Below are positions 1,594 to 49,165 of a stretch of 64,000 nt of DNA, in pieces; position 1 is the first letter of the stretch; each line of letters begins with the position of its first letter. Both the position numbers and the translations under genes were made by a program. The DNA comes from a virus. The notes below the pieces were generated by a model, which was not told the origin of the DNA, searched no databases, and saw only the letters and a program-made list of their open reading frames with translations. Where the stretch lies: positions 1-64,000 of IMG/VR virus record IMGVR_UViG_3300044724_004793, one strand, 5' to 3'.

Positions 1594-2393
1594 TAAAGCC
1601 TATTATTATACATTATCCAAGTGGTGGATTTGGAAACTTTATCAACGTACTCCTTAGCATATGTTTTAATGCTATAGATACTCCGGATAAAGATTTTAAA
1701 TTCAGCGCAAATGGTAACAGCCACGACTTTCCAAAATCAACTTGGACTCATTATGAGGATAATATAAAACTTTTTAGAGATGATATATTGCTAGTGGACA
1801 GCGGCATTGATAAAGATTACATAGAACCCATAACTGAAAGATTTCCAAACAGTCCTATAATTAGGATGTGTATTGACGAGCAAAGTAAAAGTATTGTAAC
1901 ACAAACCTGCAAATATAAAGCACAAGGAAAACAATTTATATTTGATGGTGAGTGGTGGGAAAAAAGAGAACAGTACACGCTAATGTATCACTATGGCGAA
2001 GAAAACAACGACTACTATATTAATAACTTTAAACCGTTAGACGAGTGTACTAACATTAACATAAGTGATTTGTTTGTAAACTTTGATAAAGTGTTAGAGC
2101 AGTTGTCAACAGTAGTTGGTTCTTACGATAAAGACAAAGCATACGAGCTTCACAACGGATTCTTAGAATCAAACAACAAATATTATAAAGCCGAGGAACT
2201 AGTTAATATAGTAAAGGACGCATTAGAAACGAAAAATCATGTTGAGTTAGACGATTATAGTTTGCATGATCAAGGATACTTGCTCTTTTGGCTCGAAAGA
2301 AAGTATAATATTAAAGAAATACCTCCGTACGACTATAGAGAATGGTTCAAACACACGAAAGAAATTGAAACTTGTTTAAACTTAATACACTAA
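1590..2393 (+). CDS. Hypothetical protein, possibly sulfotransferase/P-loop-like fold
   Basis: 267-aa ORF overlapping both neighbours. N-terminal beta-strand plus YPSGGFGNF loop; fold assignment is tentative. Confidence 0.45.
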   Translation: MIKPIIIHYPSGGFGNFINVLLSICFNAIDTPDKDFKFSANGNSHDFPKSTWTHYEDNIKLFRDDILLVDSGIDKDYIEPITERFPNSPIIRMCIDEQSKSIVTQTCKYKAQGKQFIFDGEWWEKREQYTLMYHYGEENNDYYINNFKPLDECTNINISDLFVNFDKVLEQLSTVVGSYDKDKAYELHNGFLESNNKYYKAEELVNIVKDALETKNHVELDDYSLHDQGYLLFWLERKYNIKEIPPYDYREWFKHTKEIETCLNLIH

Positions 2394-4129
2394 CCGTAAA
2401 GAATTTTATGAGCGTGGGCAATCAAACTCAGGCTGTAGACTTTGACCGTAGAGACTTAACTCTGGTGCTGGGTGAAAACTTAGATCAAGGAGGTGACGAC
2501 TTAGGCGCCAGAAATGGCACGGGTAAAACCACAATCATCAACGCACTCAGTTATGCTCTCTACGGTCAAGCATTAACTAATATTAAAAAAGATAACCTAG
2601 TTAATAAGACCAACGGCAAGTCTATGATGGTTACTGTTGACTTTGAGTTACACGGCATTACGTATCGTATTGAACGTGGCCGTCGGCCCAACGTACTCAA
2701 GTTTATGGTTGGCGAAGTTGAAACTGAAGAACAACAAGGCGACAGTAGAGAAACGCAACACTATATTGACAAATTGTTGCACATGAGTCATGAGATGTTT
2801 AAGCATCTGGTTGCGCTTAACACTTATACGCAACCATTCCTTAGTTTAAGTGCAAATGATCAGCGTGATATAATTGAACAGATGCTGGGTATCACTATGT
2901 TAAGTGAAAAAGCAGATGCACTTAAAGATCTGAATAAAAAAACAAAGGACATGATTACTGAAGAAGAGTATCGTGTTAAGGCAGTTGAAGACGCAAACAA
3001 GCGAGTTGAAGAGCAGATTGACAGTCTAAAGAAACGTCAGCGTCTCTGGCATGCTAAACGTGACGAGGACGTAAAAAAACTAAAGTCTGGCATTGAGGAT
3101 CTAGCACACATTGATATTGATAGCGAGCTTGCTAATCATAAACTACTAGAAGATTTTTATGCACAAAGGAAACGGCGAGAAGAAGCAGAGCGTTGGATTG
3201 TTGGAATTGACACTGATAATACCAAGCAAGAAAAGTTAATCCTACGTCTAGATAAAGAAATTGCACTACTTGAAGAACATAAATGCAGTACCTGTGGTCA
3301 GGAAATTCACGACGGCAAGCAGGAAGAAATTTTGGCTAGTAAAGCAACTACTAGACAAGAAGCAACTATGTCTATACTTGCTAATGAAACGCAACGTGCG
3401 GATCATTTAGAAATATTAAGTGAAGGTGTGTTGGGAGTTGCTCCAAAAGTATTTTATGATACAATTGATGATGCATATAACCACCGTAGTAGTTTGGATA
3501 GTTTAGCAAAAGAGCTAGAAAATCGCAGTAATGAAGTCGATCCATACGCAGAACAAATCGTGGAGATGACACAAACTGGTGTTGAGCCTGTTGACTGGAA
3601 TACAGTTAACGAACTAGTACGTATACGCGATCACCAGGACTTCTTATTAAAATTATTAACTAATAAAGATAGTTTCATACGCAAACGTATTATTGATCAG
3701 AACTTGCAGTTCTTGAATGCTCGATTAACTCATTATCTTGACAAGATGGGATTGCCTCATTCAGTTCGTTTTATGAACGACCTAGGCGTAGAAATACAGG
3801 AACTGGGGCGGGATCTAGACTTTGACAACCTTAGTAGAGGAGAGCGTAATAGACTTATTTTAAGTTTAAGTTGGGCGTTCCGAGACGTTTGGGAAAGCCT
3901 ATATCATCCTATCAACTTGTTGTTTATTGACGAAGTTGTTGACAGTGGAATGGACGTTAGTGGAGTCGAGAGTGCACTAGCAGTACTTAAACGGATGGCA
4001 AGAGACCGCAACAAGAGTATTTGGCTTGTTAGTCACAAGGATGAGCTTACAGGCAGAGTTAACAACCTGCTTAAAGTTGTAAAAGAGAATGGCTACACCA
4101 GTTATGACACGGACGTAGAAGTTGTATAA
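2372..4129 (+). CDS. gp46: Recombination ATPase subunit, Rad50/SbcC-like (T4 gp46)
   Basis: KNFMSVGN, Walker A GARNGTGKTT, coiled coil with zinc hook CSTCGQ, signature LSRGE, Walker B LLFIDE, H-loop VSHK. Confidence 0.95.
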   Translation: MFKLNTLTVKNFMSVGNQTQAVDFDRRDLTLVLGENLDQGGDDLGARNGTGKTTIINALSYALYGQALTNIKKDNLVNKTNGKSMMVTVDFELHGITYRIERGRRPNVLKFMVGEVETEEQQGDSRETQHYIDKLLHMSHEMFKHLVALNTYTQPFLSLSANDQRDIIEQMLGITMLSEKADALKDLNKKTKDMITEEEYRVKAVEDANKRVEEQIDSLKKRQRLWHAKRDEDVKKLKSGIEDLAHIDIDSELANHKLLEDFYAQRKRREEAERWIVGIDTDNTKQEKLILRLDKEIALLEEHKCSTCGQEIHDGKQEEILASKATTRQEATMSILANETQRADHLEILSEGVLGVAPKVFYDTIDDAYNHRSSLDSLAKELENRSNEVDPYAEQIVEMTQTGVEPVDWNTVNELVRIRDHQDFLLKLLTNKDSFIRKRIIDQNLQFLNARLTHYLDKMGLPHSVRFMNDLGVEIQELGRDLDFDNLSRGERNRLILSLSWAFRDVWESLYHPINLLFIDEVVDSGMDVSGVESALAVLKRMARDRNKSIWLVSHKDELTGRVNNLLKVVKENGYTSYDTDVEVV

Positions 4130-4964
4130 AGTACTTCATTTAGAGCCAACTGACGTATGTCAAGCCAAATGTCCACTGTGTAGTAGATCTACAAATCCAC
4201 TATTTACAGACTTGCACAATCATTTAACTGTAGACCAGATACAAGCAAAGTTAAGTAGCACTGATATCCAGAGTTTGGATAAAATGTTTATGTGCGGCAA
4301 TTATGGGGATCCTGCTGCAGGTGCCAACACACTGGAAATTTATCGTTACTTTAGGAGCGTAAATCCAAACATTACATTAGGAATGAACACCAACGGTGCT
4401 ATACAGTCCACTAATTGGTGGAAAGAGCTTGCTGGTATTTTTACAATGCCTACAGACTATGTGGTTTTTAGTATAGATGGATTAGAAGACACAAATCATA
4501 TCTACAGACGTAATGTTATCTGGAAAAAATTAATTGACAACTGTACAAGTTATATCAACGCTGGGGGGGAAGCTCACTGGGACATGTTAGTTTACAAACA
4601 CAATCAGCATCAGGTTGATGAGTGTATGGAATTGGCAAAAACGCTAGGGTTTGCCTGGTTTAGAGCAAAAGTAAGTAAACGAGCCTTTATAGATGGTTTG
4701 GAATTTCCAGATGGTTATGAAAATCCTAAAATAGAACAGGGCAGTATCAACTGTATGGCTTTACAAGAATCAAGTGTGTATATAAGTGCAACTGGAGATG
4801 CACATCCTTGCTGTTGGTTAGGCAATAATTTAAATAATACATTACAAATGGCAGATGTGCAAGCAACATGGAATACTGATACACCCAATCCAACTTGCAA
4901 AAGAACATGTAGTGCAGTGGAAAATAGTTTTAAAAATCAATGGCAGCGTGAGGTAGAATTGTGA
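4122..4964 (+). CDS. Radical SAM protein with C-terminal SPASM/twitch-like Cys domain
   Basis: CQAKCPLC (CxxxCxxC), GNYGDP, TNG and FSIDG motifs; C-terminal C...G..HPCCW...CKRTC. Confidence 0.88.
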   Translation: MYKVLHLEPTDVCQAKCPLCSRSTNPLFTDLHNHLTVDQIQAKLSSTDIQSLDKMFMCGNYGDPAAGANTLEIYRYFRSVNPNITLGMNTNGAIQSTNWWKELAGIFTMPTDYVVFSIDGLEDTNHIYRRNVIWKKLIDNCTSYINAGGEAHWDMLVYKHNQHQVDECMELAKTLGFAWFRAKVSKRAFIDGLEFPDGYENPKIEQGSINCMALQESSVYISATGDAHPCCWLGNNLNNTLQMADVQATWNTDTPNPTCKRTCSAVENSFKNQWQREVEL

Positions 4965-5010: not shown

Positions 5011-5430
5011 ATGAAGTGGTTATACAAGGATCAACCAGTAGACGAATTACCAGAAGACATAGTAGGTTTTGTCTACTTGATTACTAACACTACAAATAAC
5101 AGACGATACATTGGCAAAAAACTGGCACGATTTAGGCGATCTAAACCACCCCTCAAAGGCAGAAAAAACAAACGGCGCACTACTGTGGAATCAGACTGGC
5201 GTGATTATTATGGCTCATCAGACGCACTAACGGCAGACATCGAAGCACTCGGCAAAAGCTGCTTTAAACGTGAGATACTCTACTATTGTTACAGCAAGGG
5301 AGAGTGTAGTTACATTGAAGCAAGAGAACAATTTAGGCACCGTGTTTTAGAATCAGATGAATGGTATAACGGGCATATACGTGTTCGTGTTCATCAGAGT
5401 CAAAAAATACTTACAGAATCTAACAAATAG
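5011..5430 (+). CDS. Small free-standing GIY-YIG endonuclease (Seg/EndoII-like)
   Basis: GFVYLITN...RRYIGKK, YYGSS, FKREIL, conserved Glu in YIEA and YNG. ATG 5011 is preferred over the ORF-track start at 4984. Confidence 0.88.
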   Translation: MKWLYKDQPVDELPEDIVGFVYLITNTTNNRRYIGKKLARFRRSKPPLKGRKNKRRTTVESDWRDYYGSSDALTADIEALGKSCFKREILYYCYSKGECSYIEAREQFRHRVLESDEWYNGHIRVRVHQSQKILTESNK

Positions 5431-5439
5431 GCTTACATA

Positions 5440-5690
5440 GCAACCCTGAATCAACGCCTTGAGACTGCTTCTGCGGTTGGAACTGGCGAGTTGCGGGCAA
5501 AAATTACTCTAGAAAACCCTTTAGCACTAGGAACGAGGCTGGGGATAGCGTAGAAATACGTGATATCGACGTAGGTTGGGAAAGGTCAGAGCCCATAGAG
5601 TAGCCAAAAATACCTACTTCCGGATGCTGGATAAACGACGGTAATGTCACCAGAATCGACGGAACCTTGGATTGGTTCCGTCTGACTGAA
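5440..5690 (+). ncRNA. Candidate structured non-coding RNA, unassigned family
   Basis: GC-richer non-coding stretch with many stems, two GNRA tetraloops (GAAA 5553-5556, GUAA 5641-5644) and crossing pairings. See findings. Confidence 0.6.
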
Positions 5691-5703
5691 ACACTTTGGT
5701 AAT

Positions 5704-5782
5704 ATCAAATTATAAGAGATCAAGTTATTAAGAGATCAAACACGGAACGTTAGTGAAGTGTTTGGATGAACGTAGTTCATCC
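5704..5782. repeat. Direct repeats plus two inverted repeats (origin-like)
   Basis: TAAGAGATCAA at 5713-5723 and 5729-5739; CAAACAC/GTGTTTG at 5737-5743/5758-5764; GGATGAAC-GTA-GTTCATCC at 5764-5782. Confidence 0.7.
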
Positions 5783-5789
5783 GTTTAGG

Positions 5790-5817
5790 TTGACAGAATT
5801 ATATAGTAAGTTATAAT
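5790..5817 (+). promoter_or_regulatory. Sigma70-type (early) promoter
   Basis: TTGACA-N16-TATAAT; shares GGTTGACAGAA with the promoter at 35689. Confidence 0.75.
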
Positions 5818-5865
5818 AAGTGTATTATCCAGGTGTAAATACTAAACCTAAAAAGGAATATATAT

Positions 5866-6090
5866 ATGGATGCTATAGATAAAAGGACAAAAAGCGAAGC
5901 TGAAAGTGCTTTTATTGAATTTGTTGACAAAATCCAGGACTTGGGATTCAAATTTGATTTATTTGATAAGGTGGAACTCACGTATATCAAAGGTGATGCT
6001 GCCTTAAAACCACATAGCATAGGTAATAAACTTACTTTACGTGCTGAAGAGTACGTGACAAGTGATGATAAAAACACCCAGATCACTTAG
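5866..6090 (+). CDS. Hypothetical protein (74 aa)
   Basis: AAGGA Shine-Dalgarno, lies downstream of a promoter, converges on the gp51-like ORF. Confidence 0.65.
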   Translation: MDAIDKRTKSEAESAFIEFVDKIQDLGFKFDLFDKVELTYIKGDAALKPHSIGNKLTLRAEEYVTSDDKNTQIT

Positions 6091-48058: not shown

Positions 48059-48664
48059 ATGGCAAGTCTTGACAATATGGTTCACGAAATACCAGAGCTA
48101 TCTTTAGATTTGGATACGTGCTACAATGTAATACAACACGCAGAGGATACAAACTCTACGGATAGTAGCTTTCAGGTTCCTGATCTATACTTTAAATATC
48201 TCACTAATAAAATCTATGCTAAGATTGACAATGCAATTATAATGAAGTTTTGGCCTGATAGCTGGTTAAATTGGCATAAAGACGTAATAAGAACAGCCGC
48301 TATAAACGTATTACTAACTGATAACCATAGTAGCTACGAAAGTCTAATGATAAACCCCGCTACACATGAAGTACATAATATAAATTATACAACTGGCGTT
48401 CCTTTACTGTATAATACAAGAAATATACACATGGTGCGTAATAATCATTTAACTTGTCCAAGATATATTTTAAGTATCTCCTTTAACGATAACATGCATA
48501 GCGGCAGTAATTTTACGTTCCAAGAACTAGTCGAATTATATAATAGGAGGTTATTGATTAATAACACTCAGCAAGTACAGAAATCTCCTAAACTATACTG
48601 GTCTAAAGACAAAATTACTGCTGATATAGATAACCAAGTTTTAGATAAATACACTGCTAACTAA
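48059..48664 (+). CDS. 2OG-Fe(II) oxygenase/cupin-like protein
   Basis: HxD (WHKD), AAIN, distal His (IHMVRN) and RYILSISF motif. Confidence 0.65.
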   Translation: MASLDNMVHEIPELSLDLDTCYNVIQHAEDTNSTDSSFQVPDLYFKYLTNKIYAKIDNAIIMKFWPDSWLNWHKDVIRTAAINVLLTDNHSSYESLMINPATHEVHNINYTTGVPLLYNTRNIHMVRNNHLTCPRYILSISFNDNMHSGSNFTFQELVELYNRRLLINNTQQVQKSPKLYWSKDKITADIDNQVLDKYTAN

Positions 48665-48727
48665 AATGTTAGTTTATGCAGGATACCACCTGCGTAGCCC
48701 TAGAACGGCCCAACAAGGAGAAACAAA

Positions 48728-49165
48728 ATGGGTAGACCAATGAAACTTGCCGAAACAGTAGACGGCAATTTAAAAGTAGCAGCAGCAAATACCAGTGGTA
48801 CAATTGGTGATACAGCCCTTAGCGGTAGTACACAGATCCAATTCACAGGATTTGTTGAAGGCGGTAGCGCAAACACAGGTTATGCTAGTGCTCAAAAGGG
48901 TTCAACAACATTTAAGATTACTACTTCAGACGGCACAGGAGATCTTATCCTAAACGCTGTTGCAAGTGGTTCACTTAGTGCAGGCGAATGCCAACTTACA
49001 GCAACTGACAGTGATGCAAATACTTACTATGTAAGTAAGATTACTTCACGTTATGTAACACTAGTACCAAACGATGGTGTACAGTTCACAAGTGGACAAC
49101 GTGCACTATGGGTTGCTAGCGGTAGCGAAGTAAGCGGCTCAGCAGTCAGCATTCCGCTAGCATAA
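48728..49165 (+). CDS. Small virion structural protein (possibly head decoration)
   Basis: AGGAG SD, late promoter at 48646, S/G/T-rich; MGRP...QKGS..F...YYVSKIT. Confidence 0.7.
   Translation: MGRPMKLAETVDGNLKVAAANTSGTIGDTALSGSTQIQFTGFVEGGSANTGYASAQKGSTTFKITTSDGTGDLILNAVASGSLSAGECQLTATDSDANTYYVSKITSRYVTLVPNDGVQFTSGQRALWVASGSEVSGSAVSIPLA

What the first reader, a model, noticed from the sequence alone, without database searches (positions are those of the whole stretch)
5440..5690. Orphan ~250-nt multi-pseudoknot RNA-like element directly after the GIY-YIG nuclease gene
Seen: the largest non-coding gap in the window is densely paired. Nested 5' arm: GCAAC 5440-44/GTTGC 5490-94, CGCC 5455-58/GGCG 5485-88, GACTGC-ttct-GCGGTT 5463-78. 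Long-range: TACTCTA 5505-11/TAGAGTA 5596-602. Hairpin GATA-GCGTA-GAAA-TACGT..TATC 5544-67. GTAGGT 5571-76/ACCTAC 5612-17 crosses the TACTCTA helix, making a pseudoknot. TGGG 5577-80/CCCA 5592-95 has a loop GTCAGA (5585-90) complementary to TCTGAC (5681-86), a second pseudoknot. Also CTGG..GACG-GTAA-TGTC..CCAG 5627-53 and GACGGAACC/GGTTCCGTC 5658-82. The GNRA loops and G-U pairs work on the + strand, which argues for RNA. I cannot match it to tRNA, tmRNA, RNase P or group I/II cores. Inference: a new structured ncRNA co-transcribed with the nuclease. It could be a ribozyme, a nuclease partner/guide scaffold, or a ColE1 RNA II-like replication pre-primer.
Basis: partly seen in the sequence, partly recalled or inferred. 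Interest (0 to 1): 0.82.

Follow-up and report, generated by a model that had tools for sequence, protein, structure and literature searches.

The report
Twin-box structured RNA behind phage nuclease
The gene-free stretch after a small DNA-cutting enzyme gene of this uncultured marine T4-like phage encodes a real, knotted RNA from a large family missing from RNA catalogues; it carries one short word twice, and its job is unknown.

Summary
Observation confirmed. It is kept by compensatory changes in more than 100 related phage contigs: 96.7% of cells paired, against 34-41% when partners are slid, and 24 of 52 pairs changed on both sides. Both pseudoknots are invariant and compatible.

The element runs from about 5440 to 5707, and perhaps to the hairpin at 5783. 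It matches no Rfam 15 family. No DNA match was found in 50,697 isolated phages.

In 116 of 116 loci with enough flank, it lies downstream of a roughly 140-150 aa GIY-YIG gene that has no DNA-binding domain, on the same strand.

The 7-mers are identical in 98 of 101 loci. They change together (17, 18 and 18 joint changes on a tree).

A second RNA class with its own twin boxes follows the same gene in sister phages.

No partner for the boxes was found, so the function is not established. My best guess is a scaffold that reads an outside nucleic acid through the two boxes.

This scan has met the family many times on other DNA. Its suggested kinship to Polynucleobacter-1 was not reproduced here.

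The parts
5011..5430 (+). Small GIY-YIG nuclease gene (139 aa from ATG 5011; stop TAG 5428-5430), catalytic domain only
   Evidence: Pfam PF19835 SegE_GIY-YIG, E 1.3e-36, covers residues 12-132 of the 148-aa reading from TTG 4984. PHROG 447 matches full length. A homologue lies upstream of the RNA in 116 of 116 loci.
5440..5494 (+). 5' arm: three stacked helices (GCAAC 5440-44 / GTTGC 5490-94; CGCC 5455-58 / GGCG 5485-88; hairpin 5463-78)
   Evidence: All three helices are kept with different sequences in L004, L007, L180, L195, L086 and L107. The free-energy fold recovers them. Most relatives carry a larger, roughly 190-nt domain here instead.
5505..5511 (+). Long-range helix H1, 5' strand (TACTCTA)
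   Evidence: 6 of 6 pairs changed on both sides; 97.7% of cells paired.
5517..5544 (+). Hairpin B with the invariant loop ACUAGGAACGAG (5526-5537)
Evidence: 5 of 6 pairs covary, 98-100% paired. The loop GGAACGARG is invariant.
5545..5567 (+). Hairpin C with a GAAA loop; a variable peripheral arm
   Evidence: 4 of 4 base pairs covary. The arm spans about 15 to 120 nt in relatives, and the length differences are not multiples of three.
5568..5576 (+). Pseudoknot PK1, 5' strand (GA-C-GTAGGT)
   Evidence: Pairs with 5612-5620. 100% of cells paired. 7 of 8 pairs are invariant and one varies G-C to G-U.
5577..5595 (+). Hairpin D (TGGG/CCCA); its loop AAAGGUCAGAG holds the PK2 5' strand GGUCA at 5584-5588
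   Evidence: 98.9% paired, and 2 pairs changed on both sides. The loop is invariant in more than 120 contigs.
5596..5602 (+). Long-range helix H1, 3' strand (TAGAGTA)
   Evidence: helix 1.
5612..5620 (+). Pseudoknot PK1, 3' strand (ACCTAC-T-TC)
   Evidence: helix 5. It lies outside H1 while its partner lies inside, so the pairing is knotted.
5627..5653 (+). Hairpin E (CTGG/CCAG; inner GACG-GTAA-TGTC). Box 1 (GGTAATGTC, 5640-5648) sits in its loop and 3' strand.
   Evidence: Helices 8 and 9 are 85-90% paired. Box 1 was located.
5658..5682 (+). Hairpin F (GACGGAACC / GGTTCCGTC)
   Evidence: 98.8% paired. 5 pairs vary on one side through G-U and 1 pair changed on both sides.
5683..5692 (+). PK2 3' strand UGACU (5683-5687), followed by the conserved GAAAC
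   Evidence: 99.6% paired with 5584-5588. G-U becomes G-C in 16 of 95 sequences (helix 7).
5698..5706 (+). Box 2 (GGTAATATC), the second copy of the word in the 3' tail
   Evidence: These are the only two matches to GGTAATRTC in the 64-kb window. Twin words occur in every relative and change together.
5713..5783 (+). Downstream module: repeats TAAGAGATCAA (5713-23, 5729-39), hairpin 5737-5764 with loop GGAACGTTAGTGAA, and terminator-like hairpin 5763-5783. This is the probable 3' end of the transcript.
   Evidence: Terminator-like site. The loop motif occurs once in the window. Equivalent hairpins follow the RNA in both RNA classes. Whether this module belongs to the RNA is not settled.

Best explanation
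Window 5440-5707 (+ strand) is a member of a large, uncatalogued family of multiply pseudoknotted non-coding RNAs. Uncultured marine T4-like phages carry it directly downstream of a small GIY-YIG nuclease gene that has no DNA-binding domain.

Shown:
- The fold: a 5' arm; a core closed by helix H1 that holds hairpins B, C and D; two pseudoknots; and hairpins E and F.
- Conservation in more than 100 contigs.
- Strict linkage to the nuclease gene, on the same strand.
- Two copies of one short word that change in step.

Inferred:
- It is made as the 3' part of the nuclease transcript and ends at the hairpins downstream.
- The invariant knotted core is a rigid scaffold. It displays the two boxes (one in hairpin E, one in the 3' tail) as single strands.
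- The RNA works by base pairing, through both boxes, with two copies of an outside nucleic acid or two sites on one.

The differences between the two boxed segments are almost all transitions. One shared partner could therefore pair with both through G-U wobble. In most relatives, though not in this window's own subtype, that partner would read anti-box followed by GGGU. Neither the partner nor the output is known. The neighbouring nuclease is the obvious candidate effector, but nothing shows this.
For: - Homologues are 70-95% identical.
- The exact 24-nt core occurs in at least 120 viral contigs.
- Covariation: 96.7% of cells paired against 34-41% when slid; 24 of 52 pairs changed on both sides; 0 of 500 shuffles reach any of the five measures.
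- G-U pairs work only on the + strand.
- All three + frames carry stops.
- GC is 0.44-0.47 here, against 0.29-0.31 in the neighbouring spacer.
- No Rfam match.
- The GIY-YIG gene lies upstream, on the same strand, in 116 of 116 loci. It is present in every assessable locus chosen through gp46 alone.
- Twin boxes occur in all 96-101 distinct loci, with 11 word types. The 7-mers are identical in 98 of 101 loci. Changes on a tree built without the boxes: 17, 18 and 18 joint.
- Positions -4 to +8 of the two segments are identical or differ by transitions only. Further out, transversions dominate.
- A second RNA class behind the same gene has its own twin boxes with the same flanks, CUC|box and UCU|box.
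Against: - No transcript data, so expression, ends and strand are inferred.
- No complement of the boxes was found in the RNA, within about 500 nt, or enriched anywhere in the 963 kb of loci held. Two complements elsewhere in the phage's own 110-kb record lie in ordinary contexts and fit chance.
- The boxes are only 6-10 nt long.
- Recombination of the 3' module as a block could inflate the count of joint changes.
- The transition-only flanks rest on nearly invariant positions, so they amount to few independent events.
- Identity of the two boxes could also come from parallel pairing of the boxes with each other, or from a polymerase jumping between them.
Confidence: 0.4

Rival explanations
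1. RNA partner or guide of the adjacent GIY-YIG nuclease. The enzyme has no DNA-binding domain, and the RNA supplies target choice through the boxes, giving a cassette that works like a homing or exclusion nuclease programmed by RNA.
For: - Linkage in 116 of 116 loci, on the same strand, with the RNA starting a few bases after the stop codon.
- The Pfam domain fills residues 12-132 of a 139-148 aa protein.
- The boxes evolve fast, as a specificity element would.
- A second RNA class follows the same gene.
Against: - A close homologue with the same basic loop stands without any such RNA in Melnitz (63% identity). More distant homologues (about 45%) do so in cyanophages.
- Nucleases 70-79% identical go with different RNA classes.
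- ORFs of 90-290 aa can sit between the gene and the RNA.
- 6-10 nt is very short for a guide.
- No RNA-guided GIY-YIG enzyme is known (my own knowledge).
Confidence: 0.15
2. Decoy or antisense regulator. The two boxes act as twin seed-like sites that soak up, or pair with, a host or phage RNA, and the knotted core only serves display and stability.
For: - The boxes are seed-sized, appear single-stranded in the model, and are duplicated.
- Differences between them are transitions, which tolerate wobble pairing.
- Many box words resemble translation start regions, such as ACAUGAAG.
Against: - The invariant core is far more elaborate than known sponges need.
- No target was found.
- Strict linkage to the nuclease gene is left unexplained.
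Confidence: 0.15
3. Replication origin or primer RNA. The transcript pairs back onto DNA near the recombination genes gp46/gp47 to start copying.
For: - It sits at the end of the gp47-gp46 block, next to repeats and hairpins at 5713-5783.
Against: - R-loop primers need no invariant knotted core.
- Nothing here bears on replication.
- The twin boxes are not explained.
Confidence: 0.08
4. Ribozyme, either self-cleaving or a relative of group I introns, that processes the nuclease transcript.
For: - Long invariant junctions and a double pseudoknot.
- An A-rich junction after H1 and a knot that resembles P3/P7 of group I introns.
Against: - No Rfam ribozyme or intron model matches even at E up to 10.
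- The helix order differs from group I: a hairpin lies between the PK1 5' strand and the H1 3' strand, and no hairpin lies where P8 should be.
- There are no exons to join.
Confidence: 0.08
5. Cis-acting sensor, riboswitch-like, that controls read-through of the terminator behind box 2. The two boxes would be alternative partners in a switch.
For: - In most relatives an intrinsic terminator follows box 2 directly.
- Direct repeats are typical of attenuators.
Against: - No segment that could pair with both boxes exists within -480 to +280, even allowing G-U pairs.
- Downstream genes vary and have their own promoter.
- In this window no terminator follows box 2 directly.
Confidence: 0.07
6. Not an RNA at all, but the decayed C-terminal DNA-binding domain of the nuclease or another dead gene.
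For: A stop-free frame of 79 codons spans the element in L004 and L007.
Against: - Stops in all three frames here.
- Changes are compensatory in helices.
- Hairpin C varies by lengths that are not multiples of three.
Confidence: 0.01

Closest known systems
Large ornate RNAs of phages and prophages (GOLLD, ROOL)
   Same: Long, multiply pseudoknotted, carried by phages, found by comparative analysis, function unknown.
   Different: No Rfam model matches. This RNA is smaller (about 270 nt here, 400-500 nt in most relatives), is always behind one particular gene, and carries twin boxes.
Nuclease-plus-RNA cassettes of the OMEGA type (TnpB with its right-end RNA, IscB with its omega RNA)
   Same: A nuclease gene is followed on the same strand by a structured RNA that starts at the end of the gene. 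A short variable word lies near the RNA's 3' end.
   Different: The nuclease is a GIY-YIG enzyme, not RuvC type. The boxes are 6-10 nt, not 16 nt or more, and are duplicated. No transposon ends were seen. The same nuclease family lives without the RNA elsewhere.
Free-standing GIY-YIG homing endonuclease genes of T4-like phages (Seg family)
   Same: The protein matches the SegE catalytic domain. It sits between conserved genes, in different places in different phages.
   Different: It has no DNA-binding domain. It is fixed at this locus in the lineage rather than sporadic. No Seg gene is known, to my knowledge, to come with a structured RNA.
Polynucleobacter-1 RNA motif (Rfam RF01718)
   Same: An orphan pseudoknotted motif from aquatic samples. 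Earlier notes of this scan call it a relative.
   Different: Not reproduced here. There was no match at E up to 10 in this phage record or ten others carrying either RNA class, nor in four permissive scans.
Template-jump repeats of reverse-transcriptase RNAs (DRT2 type)
   Same: Two short identical words flank a structured segment; identity between them is what matters.
   Different: No reverse transcriptase in the 110-kb record, which is 31% complete. The box spacing of 54-68 nt is not a multiple of three, so no repeat ORF can result.

Membership tests
Twin-box RNA family (working name; uncatalogued) | Conserved core blocks: GACGUAGGUNGGNAAAGGUCAGAG, ACCUACUUCC, GGUUCCGUCUGAC and loop GGAACGARG | tested here: met
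   All are present at 5568-5591, 5612-5621, 5674-5686 and 5531-5539. The covariance model scores 162 bits, but the window was in the seed.
Twin-box RNA family (working name; uncatalogued) | Helices kept by compensatory change | tested here: met
   H1 6 of 6 pairs, hairpin B 5 of 6, base of hairpin C 4 of 4.
Twin-box RNA family (working name; uncatalogued) | Same short word twice, about 58 nt apart: in hairpin E and in the 3' tail | tested here: met
   GGTAATGTC at 5640-48 and GGTAATATC at 5698-706, a spacing of 58.
Twin-box RNA family (working name; uncatalogued) | Lies downstream of a small GIY-YIG gene on the same strand | tested here: met
   The gene ends at 5430 and the RNA starts at 5440. 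116 of 116 relatives show the same layout.
Any Rfam 15 family | Score at or above the family's gathering threshold | tested here: not met
   Nothing in 5300-5950 at gathering, and only a chance miRNA match at E 0.52.
Polynucleobacter-1 (RF01718) | Covariance model score of 37 bits or more | tested here: not met
   No match at E up to 10 in 11 phage records.
Group I intron | Core order P3-P4-P5-P6-P7-P3'-P8-P7', and flanking exons | tested here: not met
   No intron model matches. Hairpin D lies between the PK1 5' strand and the H1 3' strand, and no hairpin lies between the H1 3' strand and the PK1 3' strand. There is no interrupted gene.
OMEGA-type guide RNA cassette | RuvC-type nuclease and a guide of about 16 nt or more next to the scaffold | tested here: not met
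   The nuclease is a GIY-YIG enzyme. The shared words are 6-10 nt.
Seg-type free-standing homing endonuclease | GIY-YIG catalytic domain | tested here: met
   PF19835, E 1.3e-36.
Seg-type free-standing homing endonuclease | C-terminal DNA-binding domain | tested here: not met
   The protein ends about 15 residues after the catalytic domain. The DNA behind it is RNA-like, not a decayed domain.
Self-cleaving ribozyme | Site-specific self-scission | not testable with these tools
   This needs an in vitro transcript. No known ribozyme class matches.

The most novel reading that the evidence does not exclude
The twin boxes are a reprogrammable recognition element that aims the neighbouring GIY-YIG nuclease, which has no DNA-binding domain, at matching DNA. 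The target would be anti-box followed by GGGT, perhaps on both strands of an inverted repeat. That would be the first RNA-guided nuclease built on the GIY-YIG fold.
Probability: 0.12. Interest if true: 0.95.

Novelty: new variant of a known kind. Interest (0 to 1): 0.78.

Why it matters
This is a large RNA with a ribozyme-like degree of conservation. It is common in abundant ocean phages, absent from Rfam, and had no DNA match in any of 50,697 cultured phage records. Two short words that must stay alike through at least ten different spellings point to a reading function that can be re-set by mutation, which is how guide RNAs behave. If the partner is found, this could reveal a new way for phages to recognise nucleic acids, possibly a new programmable nuclease. 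If not, it remains one of the better-supported orphan RNAs of marine viruses.

Tried and rejected
- Decayed C-terminal domain of the nuclease: rejected. All three frames carry stops, substitutions are compensatory, and indels are not multiples of three.
- Known RNA families: none. Rfam found nothing at gathering or at E up to 10 on the window and three relatives. There are no tRNA or tmRNA genes.
- RNAalifold proposed pairing the hairpin B 3' strand with GUCUCGGCU. Rejected, because that segment does not follow hairpin B's changes.
- A long-range helix between 5'-domain GUAGAUUG and tail CAAUCUAC: rejected. The 5' segment covaries with its own hairpin partner while the tail stays fixed.
- A third copy of the box at the nuclease start codon: none.
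- A complement of the boxes, exact or with G-U pairs, near or far in the held loci: none above chance. Two complements elsewhere in the phage's own record lie in ordinary contexts.
- Palindromic pairing of box with box: fails for several word types (read).
- Kinship to Polynucleobacter-1: not reproduced.
- Reverse transcriptase for a template-jump model: none in the record.
- An RNA-specific feature in the nuclease: none. The RNA-less Melnitz protein has the same basic loop.
- Literature: no paper holds the core sequences. Two word searches gave nothing relevant.
- My covariance model does not detect the second RNA class.

Full report
**Context.** The window is a fragment of an uncultured T4-like myovirus. 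It encodes, in order:
- gp47-like phosphoesterase (583-1593)
- gp46-like ATPase (2372-4129)
- a radical SAM protein (4122-4964)
- a SegE-type GIY-YIG protein (4984/5011-5430)
- then, after the gap, a 74-aa ORF, a baseplate protein on the other strand, and the gp20 portal

The record is 110,870 bases and about 31% complete. The closest cultured relative of the nuclease is in Methylophilales phage Melnitz, at 63% identity.

The single sequence does not prove a fold. The minimum free energy is -75.7 kcal/mol against -70.2 for shuffles, a z-score of -1.13. The other strand is worse, at z -0.40.

The proof is comparative:
- Regions downstream of related GIY-YIG genes hold the same element at 70-95% identity.
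- I built a covariance model from 30 diverse copies and aligned 100 matches, 95 of them distinct.

On that alignment:
- 96.7% of cells form standard pairs, against 34-41% when partners are slid by 1-3 columns.
- 24 of 52 pairs changed on both sides.
- None of 500 shuffles reaches any of the five measures.
- The long-range helix 5505-11/5596-602 covaries at all six pairs.
- The base of hairpin C covaries at all four pairs.
- The two pseudoknots never break. They vary only G-C to G-U on one side, which is compatible with the pairing but is not proof.
- One-sided changes favour the register GGUCA 5584-88 / UGACU 5683-87 for the second knot. TC 5681-82 pairs inside hairpin F.

The 5' arm (5440-5494) is kept with different sequences in two subgroups. 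Most relatives instead have a roughly 190-nt multi-helix domain that starts at the stop codon.

G-U pairs fit only the + strand.

**Not a dead gene.** All three + frames carry stops. Hairpin C differs in length by amounts that are not multiples of three. Substitutions are compensatory.

**Not a known RNA.**
- Rfam 15 gives nothing at gathering, or at E up to 10, for the window or for three relatives of both RNA classes.
- ARAGORN finds nothing.
- blastn finds no copy in 50,697 isolated phages.
- No paper in the library holds the core sequences.
- The only hits in 185,579 species genomes are two large contigs of one Neomarinimicrobiota bin from the Red Sea. They look like binned phage DNA, which I did not check.

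**Linkage to the nuclease gene.**
- In 116 of 116 RNA loci with at least 800 nt upstream, a homologue of the window's GIY-YIG protein lies upstream on the same strand, at 56-90% identity.
- I also chose loci through gp46 alone. Every assessable locus then has the nuclease gene. About 40 carry this RNA, and five carry a second RNA class.
- That second class also follows the nuclease gene in L008, L012, L014, L020 and L026, and my model does not detect it.
- The second class shares the 3' module and has its own twin boxes (GAAUAAU, AGAUGAU) with the same flanks.
- So the gene-plus-RNA pair is a fixed cassette in this lineage, and its RNA modules are shuffled.

The protein family does not need the RNA, however:
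- Melnitz and cyanophages have homologues of 140-146 aa with no such RNA. In Melnitz and S-SCSM1 the homologue sits just after the ribonucleotide reductase genes.
- The basic loop KPPLKGRKNKRR is the same in Melnitz.

**Twin boxes.** I saw these before reading the scan's notes.
- Every copy has one word of 6-10 nt twice, about 58 nt apart: once in hairpin E and once after the second knot.
- Here the two copies are GGTAATGTC (5640-48) and GGTAATATC (5698-706), the only two matches in the 64-kb window.
- Eleven word types occur, and the 7-mers are identical in 98 of 101 loci.
- On a tree built from the flanking DNA without the boxes, box 1 changes at least 17 times, box 2 at least 18 times, and the joint state 18 times.
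- One caveat: exchange of the 3' module as a block would inflate these counts. Even so, ten coordinated respellings are the minimum.
- From position -4 to +8 the two segments are identical or differ only by transitions (CUC against UCU before the box, G against A after it). Beyond that, transversions dominate. One partner could therefore pair with both segments through G-U wobble.
- For most relatives this predicts a partner that reads anti-box followed by GGGU. The window's own subtype departs from this at positions -2 and -3.
- No such partner exists in the RNA, near it, or above chance in the loci held. The two complements elsewhere in this phage's record are unremarkable.

**How it most likely works.**

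Shown: a conserved knotted fold, fixed linkage to the nuclease gene, and twin boxes under selection to stay alike.

Inferred:
- It is made as the tail of the nuclease transcript. No promoter-like site lies between the gene and the RNA. A terminator-like hairpin lies at 5763-5783. A perfect TTGACA-16-TATAAT promoter at 5790-5817 restarts transcription.
- The core is a scaffold that displays the boxes, and the boxes read an outside nucleic acid.

I put 0.4 on that general mechanism. The specific versions score lower:
- Guide for the nuclease: 0.15
- Decoy or antisense regulator: 0.15
- Origin primer: 0.08
- Ribozyme: 0.08
- Terminator switch: 0.07

Two other readings of the box identity remain open. 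One is parallel pairing of the boxes with each other, which also predicts identity or purine-purine and pyrimidine-pyrimidine mismatches. The other is template jumping by a polymerase; no reverse transcriptase was found.

**Earlier notes of this scan.** The same family was reported many times on other DNA. My results agree on the fold, the linkage and the twin boxes. The suggested kinship to Polynucleobacter-1 (RF01718) was not reproduced in 11 records.

Noticed in passing
window 48656-48730 (+): The only Rfam match in the window at gathering score: freshwater-2 RNA (RF02980, 53.3 bits, E 2.8e-05).
   Followed up: no
window 5713-5783: After the RNA come two copies of TAAGAGATCAA, then a hairpin with the 14-nt loop GGAACGTTAGTGAA, then an 8-9 bp hairpin. 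Equivalent double hairpins with a loop of the form GA(A/G)CGNNAG(C/T)GAA follow both RNA classes in relatives. The loop motif occurs only once in this window.
   Followed up: partly
window 5790-5817: A perfect sigma-70 type promoter (TTGACA, 16 nt, TATAAT; 12 of 12) stands in front of the 74-aa ORF at 5866-6090. Homologues of that ORF also follow the RNA in L002, L004, L006 and L007.
   Followed up: no
L008 3400-3800; L256 5975-6350 (also L012, L014, L020, L026, L261, L267, L271, L277): A second large structured RNA class, not matched by Rfam or by my model, lies behind the same nuclease gene. It has conserved blocks such as GGCUCUGAGAAAAAGCAACC and CGCCCGGCAACGGGCGAA, and its own twin boxes.
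   Followed up: partly
relatives, 5-25 nt upstream of the nuclease start codon: Most relatives have a conserved motif, taGGCAnCGGTAAGTA, only 5-7 nt before the ATG, which leaves no room for a ribosome-binding site. The window has TATATAATAAAC there. This may be a phage promoter giving a nearly leaderless message.
   Followed up: no
L282, L283 (PBPT01000016.1, PBPT01000082.1): The only cellular-genome hits of the RNA core are two contigs (335 kb and 153 kb) of one Neomarinimicrobiota bin from the Red Sea. They are probably phage DNA binned with the bacterium, but could hint at a host.
   Followed up: no
window 4122-4964: A radical SAM gene sits between gp46 and the nuclease gene here, and in L004 and L006. 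Most relatives have a 65-71 aa ORF there instead.
   Followed up: no
L007 3321-4205; L002 3368-3700: In some relatives an extra ORF of 90-290 aa lies between the nuclease gene and the RNA, so the two need not abut.
   Followed up: no
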